Shown: positions 32,437-49,247 of the stretch, piece by piece
Layout: each line of letters begins with the position of its first letter
Position numbering within the stretch: position 1 is the first letter of the stretch
DNA from: an uncultured Chloroflexia bacterium
Lineage (GTDB): Bacteria; Chloroflexota; UBA6077; JACCZL01
NCBI GenBank assembly: GCA_963765765.1
Contig: CAVXYC010000023.1
Span: 419,927-483,926, forward strand
DNA length: 64,000 bases
Direction: 5' to 3'
Made by a program: the position numbers and the translations under genes
Notes under the pieces: model-generated
What the model saw: the letters and a program-made list of their open reading frames with translations, nothing else
The model's database searches: none
What the model was told of the DNA's origin: nothing

Positions 32437-32464
32437 CGTTCCGATAACCTCCATTATCGGCCCG
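32437..32464 (+). repeat. dif-like site 1
   Basis: CGTTCCGATAA-CCTCCA-TTATCGGCCCG. Confidence 0.75.
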
Positions 32465-32518
32465 TGTCTGCCTAGGGGCTCAGCGAAATAGGGGAGATTG
32501 ATCGAGCGAGCTCACTCG

Positions 32519-33515
32519 CTACTGGATGAGTTCGGTGGCCTGAGCGAGGACAGACTGCGGGATGGTCATGCCCAAGTCCCTGTGCGGCCTTGAGATTGAT
32601 CACGAAGTCGAAGGTCGTTGGCTCTTCGACGGGGAGATCGGCCGGTTGGCCCCTTTGAGGATGCTGTCCACGTAGGCGGCGGCGCGCTGGTAGATCACGG
32701 CGTAGTTGGGCCCGTAGGTCGCGAGCCCGCCCAGATCGGTGAACTCGCGATGCTCGTAGAACGCCGCCAGCCGATGCTGCCCGCCAGCTTCGACGACCCG
32801 AGTCGATAGGTGAGGATCGGCGCGGCTGACCGATGGCACCAGCAGCGCGTCAGCACCCCAGTCGTCCGCCGCCGTGAAGGCGCCGGCGAAATGGTCGGCC
32901 GTTCGCGCCGGCACCACCGCACCTGCTGCCCCAGGGTCTGGGCCGCCGCCTCGAAGTTCGCGAGCCGCGGCCCTGTCACTGGACTGTCGGGGTTGGCCAG
33001 GACGGCGACGCGGGAGGCCGTGGGGACGACCTCCTTCAGCCGCTCCATCCGCTTCATGTCGGTGTCATCGCCCGAGGTGCTCAAAGCCGGTGACGTTCCC
33101 GCCCGGCCGCGCGAGACTGGCGACCAGGCCGCTCCGACGAGGTCGGGGACCGCGGCGGCAACGATCGGGATGGTGCTGGTGGCCGGCTTGGCGGCGAGGC
33201 TCGCCGGGCCGCCTATCGCCACGAGGAGATCGGGCTGCAGGTCGACCAGCTCGGCCGCGAGCCCGGGAGGCGCTCGATCTGGCCCTCGGAGAAGCGGTAC
33301 TCGATGTGGATGTTGCTGCCCCTCGCTCGTAGCCGTGCTCGCGCAGCCCCACGGAGGAAGTCGTCGCCCGGTGCGCGGGGGCCAGGAAGCCGATGCGCGG
33401 CATCCTCGCCGTCCGCTGACCCGGCGCCGACAGGACCCCGCAGCCGGCGAGCAGGCTGAGGCCGGTGAGACCAAGGCTGGCGCGCAGGAAGTCTCGACGA
33501 TTCCACGGACTCCAT
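32519..33515 (-). CDS. ABC_sub_bind substrate-binding protein, copy 2 (multiple frameshifts)
   Basis: RRDFLRASLGL, ASLARPGGNVTG, GGLATYGPN, YVDSILKGA; homologous to 37843-38849. Confidence 0.8.
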
Positions 33516-33655
33516 AGCGGCCAGTATAGACCCGGTGGCTTGAGCCCACAATCGGACCATGCACCCACCGCGGTCGGTGCTCGGCCAGACAACGGAGCCG
33601 ATCCAGAAAAGGATCTCTCACGCCCCTCACGGCGCACGCTCCGCGTTTTGAAACA

Positions 33656-33683
33656 AGTTCCGATAACCCGCCTTATCGAACCA
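33656..33683 (+). repeat. dif-like site 2
   Basis: AGTTCCGATAA-CCCGCC-TTATCGAACCA. Confidence 0.75.
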
Positions 33684-33746
33684 TCACCTCCACACTTTGG
33701 TCTCATCCACACGCCAGGCGATTCTGTCAATTCGACAGAGCAGCGT

Positions 33747-34787
33747 CTAGAAGAACACCTCGGCGAGACCGTAAAATTCTGCGTCCACACGTTTGGTGCC
33801 GGCGACAGATCGGAGGTCCACTGGTGTGACATGCTGCCCCTTAACCGCCACCATGACGCCGAAGTGGCCCTCCCGAATCAAATCAACGGCGGCCACGCCC
33901 ACACGGGTCGCCCAGATGCGGTCCAGTGCCGTCGGGGACCCGCCGCGCTGGAGATGTCCGAGGACTGTGACCCGCGCCTCAAATCCGGTGCGCTGTTCAA
34001 TCAGCCGGGCGAGCGTATCACCGACGCCCCGCCGATCCAGGCGGACATGGCCGAACGCATCGGCTTCAGATCCGGCATCCTGCGAGGCGAGCTCGGCCAG
34101 CTCAAGCCCTTCGCACACCACAATGATGCTGAAGTCCTTCCCCTGTTGCCGGCGATCCTGGAGGTGCGTGCAGATGGTGTCAAGGTTCGTCGCCACCTCC
34201 GGCACCACGATGAGGTCGGCGCCACCAGCCAGCCCACCGGCGACAGCCACCCAGCCGGAGTCACGCCCCATTACCTCCACCACAAGGACTCGATGATGGG
34301 CAGTGGCGGTGGTGTGGAGTCGGTCCAGTGCGTCCGCCACGATCTGAACGGCGGTGTAGAAACCGATACAGTAGTCGGTTTCGGTCAGGTCATTGTCGAC
34401 GGTCTTGGGCACCCCGACGACCTTGCATCCGAGCTCTGATAGACGAGCCGCTACCGACAACGTATCATCGCCGCCGATCGCAACGAGTGCGTCGATGTTC
34501 ACGCGACGCAGATTCTCAAGAACCTGCTGGAGGTCTTCGGGCCGCTTGAGTGGATTGGTGCGCGACGTTCCCAGGATGGTACCGCCGATATGCAAGATGC
34601 CAGAAACCACGCGCGGGGTCAGTGGTTCCGTATCGCCCGAGTCGAGCAGGCCAGCCCAGCCGTTGCGAACCCCGAGCACGGAATAGCCGTATTGAAAGGA
34701 CCTTCGCGCCACGGCTCGAATCGCGGCATTGAGCCCCGGGGCATCCCCCCCGCCTGTCAAGATGCCAATGTTCAATGTGATCTCCAA
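33747..34787 (-). CDS. pfkA: 6-phosphofructokinase, probably PPi-dependent
   Basis: TGGGDAPGLNAAIR, GGTILGTSR, GGDDT and PKTVDND (Asp104/Lys124-type residues associated with PPi use), VMGR, LGHLQRGG. Confidence 0.92.
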   Translation of the reverse strand: MEITLNIGILTGGGDAPGLNAAIRAVARRSFQYGYSVLGVRNGWAGLLDSGDTEPLTPRVVSGILHIGGTILGTSRTNPLKRPEDLQQVLENLRRVNIDALVAIGGDDTLSVAARLSELGCKVVGVPKTVDNDLTETDYCIGFYTAVQIVADALDRLHTTATAHHRVLVVEVMGRDSGWVAVAGGLAGGADLIVVPEVATNLDTICTHLQDRRQQGKDFSIIVVCEGLELAELASQDAGSEADAFGHVRLDRRGVGDTLARLIEQRTGFEARVTVLGHLQRGGSPTALDRIWATRVGVAAVDLIREGHFGVMVAVKGQHVTPVDLRSVAGTKRVDAEFYGLAEVFF

Positions 34788-35293
34788 AACGCTCTCGGTG
34801 CGCCCAGGAATACGCTGGGCCGCTCACAGTGTCAAACGGAGGTGTTCGCCAGGGCACAATGAGATCAGACCGAGAGCCCATTGCGGCGAGTGGAGGAAGT
34901 TAGCACACAGAAACCTGTCGCAGGGAATCAACCTGCGCGCCTCGTCACGGAGATATTCCCGTTTCGACGGTGATGATTGAATCTTCGTGAACAGATGGAG
35001 ATTCTAGACGGATACCCAGGGTTGATCCCAGCGCTTATGAATTCATGCGCCAAGAGGAGACCCGTGAGAGTAGATGGCTTACACAACGGTTCAAAAACCC
35101 CGTGCTACTCCTCATCTTGAGCTGAGCGGATCTGCGATGCTCGCCAAGTGGACCTTCACTATCGGTCGGACGCCCCAACATTCGACTTCTGCTGGTTGCC
35201 ACGCTTAGACAGGCCCTGTTTTCCTCCTGAGGCTTTAGATCTGCCGCAGGCTGCTAAGCCAGGCTGGGGCCTACCGGCTCATCGCCTCCACCC

Positions 35294-35387
35294 AGTTCCT
35301 GTAATCGCCATTCTCGGAACCGTCACCATCCGATAATCCGCCTTATCAGACAGTTCGCAAGTAGCCCTAATCCCCATTAACAGGCGA
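35294..35387 (+). repeat. Cluster of dif-like sites 3a/3b/3c
   Basis: AGTTCCTGTAA-TCGCCA-TTCTCGGAACC (35294), CCATCCGATAA-TCCGCC-TTATCAGACAG (35326), degenerate AGTAGCCCTAA-TCCCCA-TTAACAGGCGA (35360). Confidence 0.7.
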
Positions 35388-35745
35388 TGGCGTCAGGTCG
35401 ATGAGAGCTCGGTCGGATCAAATCGCTGGAGCATGCGCTGCACCTGCCCGTAGTGCTGTTCTTCGAGCACCGCCTCTTCGTCGATGCGCACCGCGGTGGC
35501 CTCGTTGCCGCGGTCTCCTCACCAGGCGCTGTCGTGTCGCCGCGGAGCACCTATCAAGAAACGGACTGAGTCCTCGCCTGCCGAGCAGTCAAGCGGACCG
35601 GTGGTAGTCACTCCTTCGGTCCACTCCATCGGGCCCCCGACATCCGCCAGTAACCGGTCGGGGCTCTTCGCTATCCGGCCGGCCTCGGTGGGTATACTCT
35701 AAGCCGGCACTGCCGAGCCCTAGATAGAGGTTGTTCCCGATCGTG

Positions 35746-36096
35746 ATGTTGATACGCGTGCTCGCTCTCGCGCTCCTGGCGCTGCCGCTCATGCTGGCGT
35801 CCCCCGTGGCGCAGGCACAGACCAGCCAGTGCACCGGGCAGTTCGCCGCCCTTGAAGCGACCATCCAGGGTGCCGAATCCCTGAACAAGAGGACCCGGGC
35901 GAGTTTCCTGGGTAAGGCGCAGGATGCCCAGGCGAAGCTCGCCGCGGGCAAGTCGGCGGATGCCGCCCGAAAGCTCGACGATATCAAGAGCTCGCTCGCG
36001 CAGCTCGAGCAGGCGGGCAAGGTCAGCTCGACCGACGCCGCGGCGATTCGCGCGGCGACCGATGCCGCCCTGGGGTGCGTGACACCCAGTAGCTGA
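35746..36096 (+). CDS. Small secreted alpha-helical protein (FIMAH-like)
   Basis: Signal peptide ending AQA, two Cys, amphipathic helices, followed by terminator. Confidence 0.7.
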   Translation: MLIRVLALALLALPLMLASPVAQAQTSQCTGQFAALEATIQGAESLNKRTRASFLGKAQDAQAKLAAGKSADAARKLDDIKSSLAQLEQAGKVSSTDAAAIRAATDAALGCVTPSS

Positions 36097-36120
36097 CGTC
36101 CAGCGACTGACGAAACGGAG

Positions 36121-36148
36121 AGAAGGCCCGCTTCGGCGGGTTTCTTCA
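36121..36148 (+). terminator. Intrinsic terminator
   Basis: AGAAGGCCCGC-TTCG-GCGGGTTTCTT. Confidence 0.75.
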
Positions 36149-36235
36149 TCGCGCCCGCTTTCAGCCCCTGGATGGAGCGGCACTTCCTGCACCGCTGATG
36201 GCTCACCGCGCTCGTTACCATCTCCCTGCGAGTCC

Positions 36236-36294
36236 GGTTCCTGTAATCCCCATTCCCGGGAACCCGCAATCCGATAATCCCTATTATCGGCCGA
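36236..36294 (+). repeat. Paired dif-like sites 4a/4b
   Basis: GGTTCCTGTAA-TCCCCA-TTCCCGGGAAC (36236) and CAATCCGATAA-TCCCTA-TTATCGGCCGA (36267). Confidence 0.75.
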
Positions 36295-36343
36295 CCCGCT
36301 AAGCTTGAGCCCCGCTGCCATAGCGATGTAGCCCAGAGGTTTC

Positions 36344-36856
36344 ATGGCCAGGGAGTATCGATCCCCGAGCAGAGGAGGATGCGACCATGGCGCAGGGAAC
36401 GTCACCGACGAGGAACTTGCCGCACTCATTCAGCGCACTGCGGAAGCCGCCAAGGCCTATATCCGTGGGGATATGCGCACCTACTTCACGCTGATTCGGC
36501 ACGGGGACGACTACACGCTCATGTCACCGTTCGGCGGAGAACCGACACGCGGCTTCGACACCTCGCCCGAGCGCCTCGAAGCCCTGGAGCGCTACTTTCA
36601 GAACGGCGAAGCGGAACTGGAGGTGGTGCAGACCTACACGTCCGGCGATCTGGTCGTGCTGGTGGTGATCGAACGGCAGCATGGCGAGGTCGGTGGACTG
36701 CCGGACCAGGACTGGTCGCTGCGCGTGACCTTGGTCTTTCGGCGTGACGGATCGGAGTGGCGGCAGGTGCATCGGCATGCCGACCCGCTGGTCCATGGCA
36801 TCAGCCTGGAGCAACTCGCGGCGCTCGCTCGCGGAGCGGATGACCCGGTACGCTGA
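36344..36856 (+). CDS. SnoaL/NTF2-like (DUF4440-type) protein
   Basis: YTLMSPFGG, SGDLVVLVVIER, WSLRVTLVFRRDGSEWRQVHRHADPL; true start probably ATG 36388 (RBS GGAGG) with an indel. Confidence 0.8.
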   Translation: MAREYRSPSRGGCDHGAGNVTDEELAALIQRTAEAAKAYIRGDMRTYFTLIRHGDDYTLMSPFGGEPTRGFDTSPERLEALERYFQNGEAELEVVQTYTSGDLVVLVVIERQHGEVGGLPDQDWSLRVTLVFRRDGSEWRQVHRHADPLVHGISLEQLAALARGADDPVR

Positions 36857-36914
36857 CACGTTCCCGGTCCTGGCTGAGGCGACCCACGTCATCCCGTCAT
36901 CACCGGCGCGTCAA

Positions 36915-36942
36915 CGTTCCGATAACCCCCATTATCAGAATG
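36915..36942 (+). repeat. dif-like site 5
   Basis: CGTTCCGATAA-CCCCCA-TTATCAGAATG. Confidence 0.75.
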
Positions 36943-36966
36943 AAAGCCCACTAGTTCGGTTGTTGA

Positions 36967-37548
36967 TCAGCGGGATAATAGGTACAGATGTGAACACCAG
37001 TTCCGCTTATGGTCGTCTTGGCTAGTCGAAGTGGGCGCGCATTCCCATCGTCGGGGAACAGGCGCTTGCCCCCCAAGCAGTATCGGCTCGATCATCAATC
37101 GATACTCGTCGACAAGGTCGTGCTCGATGAGCGCTTTGACCAAGCTGGCGCTCCCCATAACCTGCAGTCCGCCCTCCTTCACGCCTACGTGGATCCCGTA
37201 CAGCGCCAATCGCATCTTGAGGCGGCAGCAAGGTGGAAACTTCCCAGTTGAGATCGCCCTGCCCTAGCGTACGGGAGGCAAGATACTTGGGGATTGCATT
37301 CGATCTGCAAATGAATCGCCCGGCCCGCTCGGGCCACGCTGCAGCCATGATCTGCCAGGTGCGACGACCGAAAAGCAGCGCCTCGGTTCCGTCCATGACT
37401 TCATAGGGACCGGTCCCATCGTGTACGGATCGAAATATTGCGTGGACAGACCGCCGTGAGCGAAGCCGCCGTCCGGATCATCCTGTGGCTGACCTGGCGC
37501 CTGAACTACACCGTCCAAGCTCATGAAGTCGCTAACAATAAGGCGCAT
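36967..37548 (-). pseudogene. Dihydrofolate reductase/RibD C-terminal family protein, several frameshifts
   Basis: MRLIVSDFMSLDGVVQAPG, ALLFGRRTWQ, GSASLVKALIEHDLVDEYRLMIEPILLG in three frames. Confidence 0.8.
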
Positions 37549-37742
37549 CTCGATGCTCCCTACAGCCAAGAGTCAACGCTGATGGAGTGCTCGCTGCAAG
37601 AGCTGTACCGTCATTCGGTGAGGCGAGGACGGACTAGTGCGTCCCTTTTCCCTTTGAGCGAGCGCCAAGCCTAGATGTGGGACTGCCCCAAGCGGGAGCT
37701 CTTAGCGCAGTGTCGACACGCGCGGAGATCCCCAGGAGTAGA

Positions 37743-37789
37743 GCCTCGTTCCGATAAGCCTCGTTCCGATAACCCTCATTATCGGCCGT
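37743..37789 (+). repeat. dif-like site 6 with tandemly duplicated left arm
   Basis: GCCTCGTTCCGATAA x2, then CCCTCA-TTATCGGCCGT. Confidence 0.78.
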
Positions 37790-37842
37790 GCCTGCCTGGG
37801 GGCTCTGCGAAAGAGGGGAGTTTGCGCGAGCGAGGTCACTCG

Positions 37843-38849
37843 CTACTGGATGATCTCGGTGGCCTGCGGCAGGACCGACTGCGGGATGGTCAGCCCAAGC
37901 GCCTGCGCGGTCTTGAGGTTGATCACGAAGTCGAAAGTCGTGGGCTGCTCGAACGGCATATCGGCAGGGTTGGCGCCCTTGAGGATCCTATCCACGTAGG
38001 CAGCGGCACCCTGGTAGATCTCGGTATAGTTTGGCCCGTAGCTCGCGAGCCCGCCCACATCGGTGAAATCACTGTGTTCGTAGAACGCCGCAGCCGGTGC
38101 TGGGCCGCCAGCTCGACGACCCGAGTGGGGTAACTGGTGGCAGGGGTACCCGATGGCACCAGCAGCGCGTCGGCATCCCAGTCGACCGCCGCTGCAAAGG
38201 CGCCGATGAGATCATCGGCCGTCCGCGCCGGCACCAGTCGCACCTGTTGCCCGAGGGCCTGGGCTGCCGCCTCGAAGCTCGCTAGGCGCGGCCCTGTCGT
38301 TACACCGTTGGGGTTGGCCAGGATGGCAACGCGGGAGGCAGTGGGGACCACCTCCTTCAGCCGCTCCATGCGCTTCATGTCGGTGCCATAGCCTATGGTG
38401 CTCAGCCCGGTGACGTTCCCGCCCGGCCGCGCGAGACTGGCGACCAGGCCGCTCCCGACCGGGTCAATGACCACGGCAACGATCGGGATGGTGCTGGTGG
38501 CCTGCTTGGCGGCGAGGCTCGCCGCGGGATCTGTCGTCACGAGGACATCGAGCTGCAAGTCGACTAGCTCGACGCCGAGCGCCGGCAACCGGTTGTTGTC
38601 ACTGTCCGCGAAGCGGTACTCGATGTGGATGTTCCTTCCGTCCTCGTAGCCGTGCTCGCGCAGGCCACGGAGAAAGTCCTCGATCGGGCCCGCCGCACCT
38701 TCGCGTGTGCGGTTGGTCAGGAAGCCAATCCGCGGCGTCCTCGCTGTCCCCCGACCCGGCGCCGACACGACCCCGCGACCGGCGAGCAGGCTCAGGCCGG
38801 TGAGGCCAAGGCCAGCGCGCAGAAATTCGCGACGACTCGACGGGTCCAT
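37843..38849 (-). CDS. ABC_sub_bind substrate-binding protein, copy 3 (one frameshift near 38090)
   Basis: SRREFLRAGLGL, GYEDGRNIHIEYRF, ASLARPGGNVTGLS, YVDRILKGANPADMPFEQPTTFDFVINLKTA. Confidence 0.88.
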
Positions 38850-38983
38850 GGCGGCCAGTATAAATCTGAGCCCGCCGATCGAACCGTTCACCCCACCGCG
38901 GTCAGCGATCGGCCAGGCAACGGAGCCGATCCAGAAAGGGATCTCTCGCGCCCTCCCCGGCGCCCGCTCCGCGTTTTGAAACA

Positions 38984-39011
38984 GGGTCCGATAACCCGCC
39001 TTCCCAGACGG
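38984..39011 (+). repeat. dif-like site 7
   Basis: GGGTCCGATAA-CCCGCC-TTCCCAGACGG; extra half-site TTATCGGACCA at 39078. Confidence 0.68.
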
Positions 39012-39433
39012 TTCTCTCCCCCAGGCTGATCTCAATTCGCCGATTTCCATCGTCCAGATAGTTGCCCGCGGACAGGTTTATCGGACCATGTTTACCGGGT
39101 TCACAGTTCACTTCGCGTAGCGCCCGTCAATGTCAGGTCAAGACAATAGCACGGGGATTCGACGGACGTCCCATCGCGGACCAATGCGCGCTCGATAGCG
39201 CTGACACGATCTCGCGCTTCTGGGGTGGACCCCTTCCCAATCAGTTGTTGCTCCGGTACCTCCCTGTTACCATGGAAGCCGCCTGGATCGGACCGCTTTT
39301 GGCAGCCACAGACCATCATGCCGGCGCTCGAGTCGGCACACACTGCTGCCGCATCTTCACTCGGAAGCGTGGGAACATTACCGCCTAGAGATACGGTCGC
39401 TCGGGCCGCCAGCGTCGAATTGGAGATGAGAGC

Positions 39434-44362: not shown

Positions 44363-44513
44363 TGGTCCTCTCTGATCAGCGCGCGCTGACGCGCTCTAGT
44401 GCAGTTTGACATTCAAACATCTTGTGGCGGCGGTGTCAATCTTTGACGAAGCCGCGGAGCCGCAGGCGCAACAGAACCGCACCCTGACGGGATGCGGCTC
44501 TGCCGTCCTGACG

Positions 44514-48139: not shown

Positions 48140-48706
48140 AGCTCACATGTCCGTAGACGTCGCTCGATTCGATCCTCCGCAAGCCTCTGCCCTCCAGAAG
48201 ACGGCGGAGGCTGCACATCCCACCATGATGGCGAGCATCCGGACCTGGCACCCGAACCAGTAACGCAGGGCGCTGGAGTGGGAGGCAGCCGAACCGACCT
48301 ACCGAGACCTGTGGCAGAAGGGTCCGGGTCGAACCGGTGGCGATTGGGAGGATGCCGAGCCGGGCTATCGCTACGGGGTCGAGCGTGCCATGGATGAAGA
48401 CTTACAAGGGCATAGCTGGAAGCAGGTCGAAGGTGACCTGAGCAGCGGCTTTACTGACTGGGCCAAGCGGCACGGATACGACGTGCGTTGGATGACCTGG
48501 AGCACATGCGGGAACATGTGCAGGATGTGTGGGATGAACTGGCCGGCCCGCTCCGGATCACGCGGCTGCGTCGACGGGCGTCATAGCGCGGCTGACGCGC
48601 CACTGTACTCTACTTGCGCACTCTGTTCGAGCCGCGCAGCATCAATAGCTCCGACGCGCAACTTCAGCGTCCTTCTCGCTTATTGGGCAATAGTCATCCC
48701 GATGCA

Positions 48707-49137
48707 TATTGCCCGGTGATAAACCGGAACTCATCGCAGCACTTCCATTTCCGGATAACCGTTTCGCTGTAATCACCCCGGGCCGACCCTTGTTCTCAGC
48801 AGACGACCGAGCTTGAGATCGGACGAGCGCGTCATTGTCAAGTCCGCAGGGGGACCCAAAGTGGTTCCAATAACCCTGTTCAACCTGACTTATCTGGACC
48901 AGGTGACATTAGGAAACACGTTCTATTGCCCGGTGATAAACCGGTACCCATCGCAGCACTTCCATTCCGGGTAAGCGTTTCGCTGTAATGACGCCGGGCC
49001 AACCCTCTTTCTCAGCAGACGGCCGGGCTTTGATCGGACGAGTGCGTCATTGTCAATTCTGCAGGGGACCCAAAGTGGTTCGATGACCGTGTTCAAACTG
49101 ACTTATCTGGAACCAGGTGACAATAGGAAACACGTTC
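48707..49137. repeat. Diverged non-coding tandem duplication (217 bp + 214 bp)
   Basis: Both units run TATTGCCCGGTGATAAACCGG ... GGAAACACGTTC (48707-48923, 48924-49137). Confidence 0.9.
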
Positions 49138-49247
49138 GAGTGACTGCGGGAGGTTCTGATATCGAGGGATCAGCGGAACCAGCCGGGCTGTGATCAGGAG
49201 CAGGGATCGCTTGTTGCGACAAGCCGTGGCCCGTCCGGGCGACTCGG

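What the first reader, a model, noticed from the sequence alone, without database searches (positions are those of the whole stretch)
32437..39011. Array of co-oriented dif-like sites dividing DNA into one-gene modules: candidate Xer-type cassette system
Seen: about ten 28-bp sites of 11+6+11 geometry at 32437, 33656, 35294, 35326, (35360), 36236, 36267, 36915, 37762 and 38984, with core TCCGATAA-N6-TTATCRG. Their spacers (CCTCCA, CCCGCC, TCGCCA, TCCGCC, TCCCCA, TCCCCA, TCCCTA, CCCCCA, CCCTCA, CCCGCC) are all C-rich on the + strand, so all sites point the same way. Each interval between sites or site clusters holds exactly one gene, in mixed orientation: SBP, PFK, secreted helical protein, SnoaL, DHFR-like, SBP. 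I did not see complete sites elsewhere in the window. Known: ATAA-N6-TTAT is the geometry of dif/XerCD sites (E. coli GGTGCGCATAA-TGTATA-TTATGTTAAAT), and Acinetobacter pdif sites bound mobile modules. Here both arms are XerC-like and the sites are direct repeats, not alternating. Inference: a tyrosine recombinase acting in trans stacks and excises circular single-gene cassettes, an integron-like system without attC or intI.
Basis: partly seen in the sequence, partly recalled or inferred. Interest (0 to 1): 0.92.

Follow-up and report, generated by a model that had tools for sequence, protein, structure and literature searches.

The report
Lox-like sites bounding shuffled gene cassettes
A soil bacterium's genome carries about 45 copies of a short recombination-type DNA site, all pointing the same way within each cluster and flanking single genes that have been copied and reshuffled, which looks like a gene-capture system resembling integrons but built from different parts.

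Summary
The window has 8 clear and 2-3 degenerate sites between 32437 and 39011. The consensus is GTTCCGATAA-CCCCCA-TTATCGGAAC, and every site has the C-rich spacer on the + strand. Genome-wide I count 45 sites. All 26 neighbour pairs lying within 20 kb of each other are co-oriented.

The sites behave as recombination junctions. Among site pairs, 17 share only the left flank, 18 share only the right flank and 1 shares both. A 1.2-kb substrate-binding-protein (SBP) cassette occurs in at least 4 places, and its homology ends inside the sites. A 92%-identical metagenome contig has one acetyltransferase cassette where this genome has 42 kb between two co-oriented sites.

A dedicated Xer-like recombinase gene, closest to archaeal XerA, lies elsewhere in the genome. 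It sits 220 bp from a perfect site, with a second, wider palindrome in between. The same site-palindrome-gene arrangement recurs next to 59-62%-identical orthologues in two other families of the phylum. The wider palindrome also caps the window's array at 39052-39087.

The motif is not the clade's dif. It is not an attC site, a REP element or a known RNA.

Caveats: all evidence is in silico. The recombinase gene carries a frameshift in this assembly. No circles or excision alleles were seen.

Verdict: a real feature and probably a new variant of cassette systems. Interest 0.8.

The parts
32437..32464 (+). Core site 1, TCCGATAA-CCTCCA-TTATCGGC. Left boundary of the array. It lies between the LigB-family gene and the 3' end of SBP copy 1.
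   Evidence: PWM 43.8
32517..33630 (-). Module 1: ABC_sub_bind substrate-binding protein, copy 1. It has a 1-nt insertion relative to its paralogues, so it is either a pseudogene or an assembly error.
33656..33683 (+). Core site 2, TCCGATAA-CCCGCC-TTATCGAA.
   Evidence: PWM 38.3
33747..34787 (-). Module 2: phosphofructokinase (PF00365, E 3e-106).
35294..35387 (+). Cluster of three tandem sites: degenerate 35294 (TCCTGTAA-TCGCCA-TTCTCGGA), good 35326 (TCCGATAA-TCCGCC-TTATCAGA) and weak 35360.
   Evidence: PWM 23.2 and 32.4; the third is below threshold
35731..36096 (+). Module 3: 121-aa ORF with a hydrophobic N-terminus and no Pfam family. A 140-bp remnant of another gene precedes it at 35389-35528.
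36236..36294 (+). Tandem pair of sites: weak 36236 (TCCTGTAA-TCCCCA-TTCCCGGG) and good 36267 (TCCGATAA-TCCCTA-TTATCGGC).
   Evidence: PWM 13.1 and 28.0
36344..36856 (+). Module 4: SnoaL_3/DUF4440 protein.
36915..36942 (+). Core site with the consensus spacer, TCCGATAA-CCCCCA-TTATCAGA. It lies between two convergent gene ends. Its left flank keeps a remnant of an SBP 3' end.
   Evidence: (PWM 46.8)
36967..37569 (-). Module 5: RibD_C-like (DHFR-like) gene, broken over several frames.
37740..37789 (+). A duplicated left half-site (37740-37754) followed by the core site at 37762, TCCGATAA-CCCTCA-TTATCGGC.
   Evidence: PWM 40.1
37843..38850 (-). Module 6: ABC_sub_bind SBP, copy 2. The listed ORF is 37923-39050; the true ends are uncertain.
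38984..39011 (+). Terminal core site with a variant right arm, TCCGATAA-CCCGCC-TTCCCAGA.
   Evidence: (PWM 27.2)
39052..39087 (+). Distal palindrome, GTCCAGATAG-N16-TTATCGGACC. Together with the terminal core site it forms the composite array end. The same composite stands in front of the recombinase gene at G000:C30 and in G064 and G088.

Best explanation
The sites are double-stranded core recombination sites: two 10-bp inverted arms around an asymmetric 6-bp centre. They belong to a dedicated Xer-like tyrosine recombinase whose closest characterised relatives are archaeal XerA and XerC/XerD.

In this genome the gene lies on another contig (G000:C30:93976-94864, minus strand), so it would act in trans on the window's array.

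Proposed mechanism:
- Recombination between two direct sites excises the DNA between them as a circle carrying one hybrid site.
- Such a circle can re-enter at any other site.
- Because the centre is asymmetric, every insertion yields direct repeats, so arrays grown by serial insertion are co-oriented.
- A module is therefore: right arm, then gene(s), then left arm.
- Arrays are polar. At their right end a core site is followed about 45 bp later by a wider palindrome of the same half-sites (16-bp spacing). This composite stands between site and recombinase gene wherever the gene has its site, so it is probably an attI-like privileged site and/or the gene's operator.

The window holds the largest array: six modules over 6.6 kb.

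Shown: the sites, their orientation, the mosaic flanks, the cassette copies, the breakpoint against a relative, and the gene-site linkage in orthologues.
Inferred: binding, strand exchange in the centre, circular intermediates, the role of the composite, and present-day activity.
For: 1. Number and clustering. There are 45 sites in the genome. 24 neighbour gaps are 5 kb or less, against 1.5 expected (maximum 7 in 2000 random placements). 26 of 26 neighbour pairs within 20 kb and 13 of 13 multi-site clusters are co-oriented.

2. Independent assortment of flanks. Among pairs of the 45 sites, 17 share only the left flank, 18 only the right flank and 1 both. Arm variants travel with their own flank. 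The right arm TTATCGGC goes with the 'R1' right flank in 5 of its 8 occurrences. The left variant GGTCC goes with the SBP-upstream flank and is joined to six different right arms.

3. Cassette copies. The SBP cassette occurs at C23 (twice), C1 and C27 at 82-88% identity. Homology starts after the left arm of one site and ends at the spacer of the next.

4. Breakpoint against a relative. Metagenome contig L035 is 92% identical to C27:45650-45997 and to C27:88419-89285, but has 1 kb with one GNAT gene between them. This genome has 42 kb there, bounded by co-oriented sites. Homology ends at the edge of the core site.

5. Recombinase. A Xer-like gene lies 220 bp from a perfect site at C30:95085. 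It has an RHR-H-Y active-site pattern read from the translation. Its best NCBIfam hits are XerC, XerA and XerD, all below their cut-offs. The best solved relative is XerA, 5hxy.

6. Distribution of the gene. Close orthologues are found in only 4 of 400 other genomes of the phylum sample (G001, G029, G064, G088), plus two at 43% identity.

7. Conserved architecture. Core site, about 45 bp, distal palindrome and gene are found at G064 and at two G088 copies. In G088 both arms have changed symmetrically, from ATAA/TTAT to AGAA/TTCT. G088 has 9 pattern matches against 0 for the control.

8. Polarity. The distal palindrome lies on the right-arm side of 11 core sites. It is at the right-most site of 7 of 13 clusters and never at the left-most.

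9. Lineage specificity. 25 pattern matches here against 0-1 in each of 40 relatives.
Against: - The recombinase gene carries a 1-nt insertion in this assembly. Its G001 orthologue has an in-frame TAG, and the G029 copy lacks its 5' half. The enzyme may therefore be dead in all three closest carriers. Other genes of this assembly are also frameshifted, so an assembly error is possible.
- Only 4 of 9 recombinase loci examined show the adjacent composite site. In G001:C647 and G088:C276 the contig ends just upstream. G029 is truncated. G217 and G097 (43% identity) show none.
- Direct repeats of an active site should delete quickly. The persistence of arrays needs low activity or incompatible spacers; neighbouring spacers in the window do differ, but their effect is untested.
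- No circular junction or excision allele was seen, because the public runs were uninformative.
- A simple sigma-70 scan found no promoter in the composite.
- The same arms also occur in unrelated contexts: low-GC phage contigs near terminase genes, and upstream of a dnaB-like gene in three alphaproteobacterial MAGs. The palindrome alone is therefore not diagnostic.
- 18 of 45 sites adjoin SBP-family genes, so some flank sharing reflects a gene family rather than mobility.
Confidence: 0.65

Rival explanations
1. The sites mimic the chromosomal dif site, and the housekeeping XerC/XerD-type recombinases move the modules, as in Acinetobacter dif modules or IMEX elements. On this reading the C30 recombinase is incidental.
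For: The geometry matches dif/Xer: ATAA-N6-TTAT with arms of about 11 bp. The genome has further full-length Xer-like genes (C29, C15, C10). The C29 protein scores 268 bits on XerD and 266 on the Xer subfamily model. The dedicated gene is frameshifted.
Against: The motif is not the clade's dif. Only 4 of 26 relatives of the order (at least 85% complete) have any CCGATAA-N6-TTATC, and 3 of 40 relatives have one match to the longer pattern. Site occurrence follows the dedicated recombinase. G001, G029, G064 and G088 carry both, and the site is physically next to the gene in G000, G064 and G088. Arm changes in G088 accompany a diverged recombinase.
Confidence: 0.12
2. The palindromes are regulatory or structural repeats: a transcription-factor operator, a REP-like hairpin or a 3'-UTR element. 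They spread passively with duplications of the large SBP gene family, and no site-specific recombination is involved.
For: 18 of 45 sites lie within 250 bp of an SBP-family gene, against 0.3 expected. The arms are palindromic. The same half-sites occur with 16-bp spacing around a TTGACA hexamer. Similar palindromes occur in non-recombinase contexts elsewhere.
Against: - The conserved asymmetric spacer and 26 of 26 co-oriented neighbours are not expected of operators or REPs.
- Sites face SBP 3' ends in both relative orientations (8 versus 7), so they are not one inherited 3' UTR.
- Homology breaks fall inside the sites, and flanks assort independently.
- Site 36915 lies between convergent gene ends.
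- Hairpins are weak (-0.7 to -5.6 kcal/mol), and 2 of the 4 tested fold no better than shuffles.
- The common right-arm variants break the stem without compensation.
- No Rfam family matches.
- Three Y1 transposase genes exist, but none is near a site.
- A true REP-like repeat of this genus (43 copies) is a different sequence.
Confidence: 0.08
3. The recombinase is a TnpI-type cointegrate resolvase of a Tn3-family transposon. The core site plus distal palindrome is its resolution site, and the many sites are relics of transposon copies.
For: In G088:C378 a Tn3 transposase fragment and a second tyrosine recombinase lie directly upstream of the site. A core inverted repeat with adjacent accessory repeats next to the recombinase gene resembles the Tn4430 resolution site; this comparison is recalled, not tested.
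Against: No Tn3 transposase domain was found in G000, G001, G029 or G064; it is present in 1 of the 5 genomes searched. 34 of the 45 sites lack the accessory palindrome. The modules are single ordinary genes with no transposon ends.
Confidence: 0.05

Closest known systems
Integrons (IntI, attI, attC cassette arrays)
   Same: Arrays of co-oriented recombination sites separate small, mostly one-gene modules of accessory function. One end of the array carries a distinct composite site next to a tyrosine-recombinase gene transcribed away from the array. Arrays without a recombinase gene also exist, comparable to CALINs. Array content differs between close relatives.
   Different: The sites are 26-28 bp double-strand-type palindromes with weak hairpins, not 57-141 nt folded attC sites. 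The recombinase lacks a continuous match to the integron-integrase model: 79.6 bits in two stretches against a cut-off of 265. Cassette genes point both ways, so they need their own promoters.
Acinetobacter dif (pdif) modules moved by XerC/XerD
   Same: Small gene modules are bounded by 28-bp Xer-type sites with 11+6+11 geometry, and the modules are found in different contexts. Source: abstracts of PMC12907356, PMC7399989 and PMC13141974, seen in the listing.
   Different: There the sites alternate in orientation (C and D modules), lie on plasmids, and are thought to use the host XerCD. Here the sites are direct repeats on large contigs, the motif is not the clade's dif, and a dedicated recombinase gene is linked to the site.
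Archaeal XerA/dif and other single-recombinase Xer systems (XerS/difSL, XerH/difH)
   Same: XerA is the closest solved and named relative of the recombinase. Its site has 11-bp near-perfect inverted arms with a 6-bp spacer (PMC2958812, passages read). The gene lies next to its site, as recalled for xerS/difSL.
   Different: Those systems have one site per chromosome, at the terminus, for dimer resolution. Here there are 45 sites in arrays, and the protein stays below the XerA, XerC and XerD equivalog cut-offs (161/220, 162/335 and 151/330 bits).
Cre/loxP of phage P1 and TnpI/IRS of Tn4430 (recalled from memory)
   Same: A single tyrosine recombinase acts on a short palindromic site with an asymmetric spacer that sets directionality, and its gene lies next to the site. 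In Tn4430 accessory repeats flank the core on the gene side.
   Different: Those have one site per element. They are not used to stack host genes into arrays.

Membership tests
Integron | Integron integrase (IntI) with its family-specific extra segment | tested here: not met
   TIGR02249 scores 79.6 bits in two separate stretches against a cut-off of 265. NF011946 scores 59.9 against 435.
Integron | attC sites: long imperfect palindromes that fold as single strands | tested here: not met
   The sites are 26-28 bp. As single-stranded DNA they fold at -0.7 to -5.6 kcal/mol, and 2 of the 4 tested are no better than shuffles.
Integron | Cassettes mostly promoterless and co-oriented behind a common promoter | tested here: not met
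   Window modules read -, -, +, +, -, -.
Xer/dif chromosome dimer resolution | Site geometry of about 11 + 6 + 11 bp with ATAA-N6-TTAT | tested here: met
   Spacing of 6 in 25 of 49 half-site pairs counted across spacings 0-40 nt (7 more at spacing 7, 2 at spacing 5); no other spacing has more than 2. PWM information spans about 26 bp.
Xer/dif chromosome dimer resolution | One site per replicon, conserved across the clade | tested here: not met
   There are 45 sites here. 22 of 26 relatives in the order have no CCGATAA-N6-TTATC at all.
Xer/dif chromosome dimer resolution | Recombinase reaches the XerC, XerD or XerA equivalog score | tested here: not met
   162.4/335, 150.7/330 and 161.1/220 bits for the catalytic ORF alone, since the gene is split by a frameshift.
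Acinetobacter-type dif modules | Bounding sites in alternating (inverted) orientation | tested here: not met
   26 of 26 neighbour pairs are direct.
Acinetobacter-type dif modules | Recombination by host XerC/XerD | not testable with these tools
   This needs binding or recombination assays.
REP/BIME with RAYT | REPs flanking a Y1 (RAYT) transposase gene; stable hairpins | tested here: not met
   The three PF01797 hits (C20:198k, C18:114k, C23:351k) have no PWM site nearby. The hairpins are weak.
Tn3-family TnpI/IRS resolution system | Tn3-type transposase in the same element | tested here: not met
   PF01526 was found in 0 of G000, G001, G029 and G064, and only in G088.
Tyrosine recombinase superfamily (for the C30 gene) | Phage_integrase catalytic domain with the R..HxxR..H..Y pattern | tested here: met
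   PF00589 at E 5.3e-35. The motif residues were read from the translation. Intact 321-325 aa orthologues exist in G064 and G088.

The most novel reading that the evidence does not exclude
This is a second, independently evolved gene-capture platform. A XerA-like recombinase, with a composite attI-like site beside its gene, inserts and excises circular cassettes at short double-stranded lox/dif-like sites. It thereby builds polar, co-oriented cassette arrays at many chromosomal loci. The recombinase family is common in environmental metagenomes under generic 'XerC/XerD' labels, so such platforms may be widespread and overlooked.
Probability: 0.45. Interest if true: 0.9.

Novelty: new variant of a known kind. 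Interest (0 to 1): 0.8.

Why it matters
Integrons are the textbook way bacteria stack and reshuffle single genes, and Acinetobacter dif modules are the only other cassette-like system in wide discussion. If confirmed, this system would show that the same outcome can be built from an ordinary Cre/Xer-style double-strand site and a simple recombinase, without folded attC sites.

It would give a name and a function to a large family of 'XerC/XerD-like' genes in soil metagenomes; more than 120 clusters at 61% identity or above appear among the listed hits. It would explain how a large paralogous transporter family is amplified. It could also supply new site/recombinase pairs with natural specificity variants (ATAA versus AGAA arms) for genome engineering.

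The hypothesis is directly testable with two-site plasmids and an intact orthologue.

Tried and rejected
**Synteny with the genus-mate.** G001 and four family members were searched with both flanks of the array. G001 is about 78-80% identical and split into 650 contigs. Each flank gene sits on a different small contig, and the LigB-type match is closer to a paralogue on G000:C2. No conclusion on conserved order was possible.

**Public reads.** One run search and one lay. Three runs held only 5-9% of the sampled words, as short low-depth contigs of relatives. The listed joints have sides of 20-48 letters and do not coincide with sites. This counts neither for nor against excision.

**GC skew against site orientation.** The skew is weak and the relation inconsistent, so I dropped it.

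**Clade dif.** The idea that the motif is the clade's dif was rejected.

**Lost recombinase genes.** The idea that other composite ends are followed by remnants of lost recombinase genes found no support. tblastn of two intact orthologues against 1.8 kb to the right of 12 composite or composite-like ends hit only the C30 locus.

**Phage-type integrases near sites.** Those at C20:548-549k and C1:184-185k are mutually related (37-46%), but their surroundings share only the site. I treat them as coincidental neighbours.

**Promoter in the composite.** The simple scan gave no call.

**Databases and literature.**
- Rfam: no family in the window or five array loci.
- Protein atlas: only generic integrase clusters.
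- Plasmid collection: no relative above 33% identity.
- Literature: three searches (listings and abstracts only) gave no description of direct-repeat Xer-type cassette arrays with a dedicated recombinase. I read passages of PMC2958812. Supplements are closed and were not seen. This is not proof that the system is unpublished.

**Organism.** The phylum and name were not determined.

Full report
**1. Where the window lies and what is in it**

The window is G000:C23:419927-483926, the end of a 484-kb contig of a 6.49-Mb, 33-contig, 61% G+C genome. The genome is 92% complete with 6.9% contamination.

A core pattern with up to 2 mismatches finds 7 matches against 1.02 expected; 0 of 100 shuffles reach 7, and six of the seven lie between 32442 and 37784. 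A longer pattern finds 7, all between 32440 and 39005, against 0.07 expected.

Seven sites are clear: 32437, 33656, 35326, 36267, 36915, 37762 and 38984. Sites 35294 and 36236 are degenerate partners lying 31-32 bp in front of good sites. Site 35360 is marginal. All have the C-rich spacer on the + strand.

The genes between the sites are as described. Three qualifications apply. The RibD_C-like gene is in pieces. SBP copy 1 has a 1-nt insertion relative to its paralogues. A 140-bp gene remnant lies at 35389-35528.

**2. Genome-wide picture**

A PWM from 29 clear sites gives 42 hits in the genome against 1 in a shuffled genome. Seven more sites have 5- or 7-nt spacers within the C run. With weak hits removed, I work with 45 sites.
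- The consensus is GTTCCGATAA-CCCCCA-TTATCGGAAC.
- The left arm is exact in 35 of 45 sites.
- The right arm is more varied: TTATCGGA 13, TTATCGGC 8, TTATCAGA 5, TTCTCGGA 3, TTCCCAGA 3.
- Half-site pairs strongly prefer a 6-nt spacing (25 pairs); 7 pairs have 7 nt, 2 have 5 nt, and no other spacing from 0 to 40 nt has more than 2.
- The sites are clustered: 24 neighbour gaps of 5 kb or less against 1.5 expected (maximum 7 in 2000 trials).
- Every one of the 26 neighbour pairs within 20 kb, and every one of the 13 multi-site clusters, is co-oriented. Both orientations occur in the genome overall.

The window holds the largest cluster.

**3. The sites are junctions between independently assorting DNA**

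Clustering the 150-bp flanks of all 45 sites gives 17 site pairs that share only the left flank, 18 that share only the right flank, and one pair that shares both.

A 1.2-kb SBP module occurs at C23:452360-453600, C23:457685-458928, C1:191302-192543 and C27:46161-47315, at 82-88% identity. In the alignment, sequence to the left of the left site and to the right of the right site's spacer is unrelated between copies. Everything from the right arm of the left site to the left arm of the right site is homologous.

Arm variants follow their own side. The GGTCC left variant always comes with the SBP-upstream flank but is joined to six different right arms. The TTATCGGC right arm comes with the 'R1' flank in 5 of its 8 occurrences. 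This is what exchange inside the central region produces.

**4. A breakpoint against a close relative**

Contig L035 is 92% identical to C27:45650-45864 and to C27:88419-89285, and 83% identical over C27:45873-45997. In L035 these flanks are about 1 kb apart, with a single GNAT acetyltransferase gene between them. In G000 they are 42 kb apart, and the interval begins and ends with co-oriented sites (45975 and 88180) and has further sites inside.

Homology on the left ends at the edge of the core site. On the right it resumes about 110 bp beyond the composite end, which differs between the two genomes.

Two more contigs from the same metagenome (L041, L042) join G000-like sequence to other partners at a site.

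It rests on short contigs from one sample.

**5. A dedicated recombinase**

Of the 21 PF00589 hits in the genome, one is a roughly 300-aa Xer-like gene at C30:93976-94864 on the minus strand, 220 bp from the perfect site at C30:95085.
- It is single-copy.
- It scores best on the XerC, XerA and XerD models, all below their cut-offs. It matches the integron-integrase model only in two separate pieces.
- An intact orthologue's best solved relative is archaeal XerA, 5hxy (E 4e-38).
- No plasmid in the collection encodes anything above 33% identity.

In this assembly the gene has a 1-nt insertion. Substitutions against the G001 orthologue (78% nucleotide identity, 87% protein identity) look mostly synonymous by eye, which suggests recent function. 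G001's copy has an in-frame TAG, and G029's copy lacks its 5' half.

A 93-aa ORF with paired cysteines follows the gene. It is conserved in G001 (72%) and G064 (37%).

**6. Gene-site linkage is conserved**

Among 40 relatives, only G001 (87%) and G029 (69%) have close orthologues; all other hits are 36% or less. Among 400 genomes sampled across the phylum, G064 (62%) and G088 (three copies at 60, 59 and 52%) are added, plus two at 43%.

At G064 and at two G088 copies the same order is found: core site, about 45 bp, then a wider palindrome of the same half-sites (GTTCC-A-TATAA, 14-16 nt, GGTTATCGGAACC), then the gene. In G088 both core arms have changed symmetrically (GAGAA / TTCTC). G088 has 9 pattern matches against 0 for the reversed control, including two co-oriented sites 6.4 kb apart.

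G064 has a second, co-oriented site 2.4 kb from the first. G029 has a perfect site and a core-plus-distal composite on other contigs. G001 has a tandem site cluster at a contig end.

Results against this linkage: five of the nine recombinase loci examined show no adjacent site. Two of these start at a contig end, one is the truncated G029 gene, and two are the 43% relatives.

**7. Arrays are polar**

In G000 the distal palindrome follows 11 core sites, always on the right-arm side. The sites are C1:191291, C6:22655, C7:229, C7:45097, C10:48972, C20:551911, C23:204641, C23:458913 (window 38984), C27:88180, C30:95085 and C32:296457.

It is at the right-most site of 7 of 13 clusters, internal in one, and never left-most. 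Partial copies follow C1:19791 and C27:48704.

The genes beyond these ends are unrelated to one another: PhoX, Rieske, a 5'-3' exonuclease, an epimerase, a methylase fragment and an SBP_bac_5 operon. The composite is therefore not the promoter of one gene family. No recombinase remnants follow the other composites.

The geometry is array, composite site, then recombinase gene reading away. This is the geometry of cassettes, attI and intI in an integron.

**8. What the modules carry**

SBP-family genes are strongly over-represented. 18 of 45 sites lie within 250 bp of one, against 0.3 expected. The gene's 3' end faces the site from the left 8 times and from the right 7 times, so the site is not a fixed part of the gene's 3' region.

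Other modules encode PFK, SnoaL, a RibD_C-like protein, a META-domain protein, a methyltransferase, an LMWPc phosphatase with a MIP channel, an AurF-like protein, cytochrome bd subunit I, a CAAX protease and a LuxR-GAF regulator.

**9. Alternatives tested**

- **Clade dif.** Only 4 of 26 relatives in the order have any CCGATAA-N6-TTATC, and 3 of 40 relatives have a single match to the longer pattern.
- **REP or hairpin.** Single-strand folds are weak, and 2 of 4 are no better than shuffles. The frequent right-arm variants break the stem. Y1 transposase genes are not near sites. Rfam finds nothing.
- **Operator.** This is contradicted by the asymmetric spacer, the co-orientation, the position between convergent genes, and the breaks in homology.
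- **Tn3 resolution site.** A Tn3 transposase fragment adjoins the site in G088 only, that is 1 of 5 genomes searched.
- **Host Xer use.** This cannot be excluded.

**10. What remains open**

Nothing here shows binding, strand exchange or circles. The recombinase may be inactive in this genome, in which case the arrays are relics.

Neighbouring spacers in the window differ: CCTCCA, CCCGCC, TCGCCA, TCCGCC, TCCCTA, CCCCCA, CCCTCA, CCCGCC. If this enzyme, like Cre or Flp, needs matching centres, that difference would stabilise the array. This is inference.

The recombinase family is large in metagenomes: 2321 proteins at E of 1e-30 or below, and the 120 listed are all at 61% identity or above, mostly unnamed or labelled XerC/XerD.

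**11. Verdict**

The system works like an integron but is not one. Its closest molecular relatives are single-recombinase Xer systems.

I rate it a new variant of a known kind, with interest 0.8 and confidence 0.65 in the mechanism.

Noticed in passing
window 44476-44502 (also 43 places in G000; many in G001): A different repeat of about 27 bp with hairpin potential (CCGCACCC..GGGATGCGG type). It has 43 copies at up to 3 mismatches in G000 and dozens of 93-100% matches in the genus-mate G001. It looks like an ordinary REP-like family shared by the genus, unlike the recombination-type sites.
   Followed up: partly
window 48689-49152, minus strand (G000:C23:468615-469078): Two tandem copies of a 240-bp element that begins with the wide palindrome (GGTCCAGATAA-N16-TTATTGGAACC) and a TTGACA hexamer. 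Further copies lie at C1:3130-3361 and next to the site at C1:191291. There is no Rfam match, and no core site adjoins it here. It may be a small mobile or regulatory unit derived from the composite array end.
   Followed up: partly
L040 (metagenome contig, 5087 bp), sites at 616 and 4548: In an unrelated 58% G+C organism, a roughly 3.9-kb unit is repeated in tandem. The unit holds a small CxxC protein, the same palindrome, a different tyrosine recombinase (28% identical to the C30 enzyme) starting 35 bp after the site, an HTH protein and an IS1595 transposase. The second site carries symmetrical changes in both arms.
   Followed up: partly
L052-L075 (24 viral-collection contigs): The perfect-arm palindrome TTCCGATAA-N6-TTATCGGAA occurs once in each of 24 predicted viral contigs. 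In low-G+C phage contigs it lies 200-560 bp upstream of the large terminase gene (3 of 3 checked). In 3 high-G+C contigs a tyrosine recombinase lies within 110-290 bp.
   Followed up: partly
L001-L003 (three alphaproteobacterial MAG contigs): A conserved TCCGATAAYCCCCATTATCGGG palindrome sits in a conserved position, just upstream of a sequence whose translation, by eye, resembles the start of a replicative helicase. This is probably an unrelated operator.
   Followed up: no
L050 2490-4049 (G088:C378): One open frame joins the C-terminal part of a Tn3-family transposase to a second tyrosine recombinase (32% identical to the neighbouring one), directly upstream of the core site.
   Followed up: partly
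G000:C20:548200-549450, G000:C1:184000-185200, G000:C30:94640, window 32517-33630: Several genes of this assembly are split by single frameshifts: two phage-type integrases, the Xer-like recombinase and SBP copy 1. Either the assembly has indel errors or many mobile-element genes are decaying.
   Followed up: no
G000:C7:37156-41627 (L010 5156-9627): One interval between two sites carries an LMWPc phosphatase and a MIP channel side by side. This pairing is typical of arsenic-resistance clusters (from memory) and would suit an accessory cassette.
   Followed up: no
G000:C30:93660-93938, minus strand: A 93-aa ORF with paired cysteines, resembling a topoisomerase-type zinc ribbon by eye, overlaps the stop of the recombinase gene. 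It is conserved after the orthologues in G001 (72%) and G064 (37%). It has no Pfam or NCBIfam hit and may be an accessory factor.
   Followed up: partly
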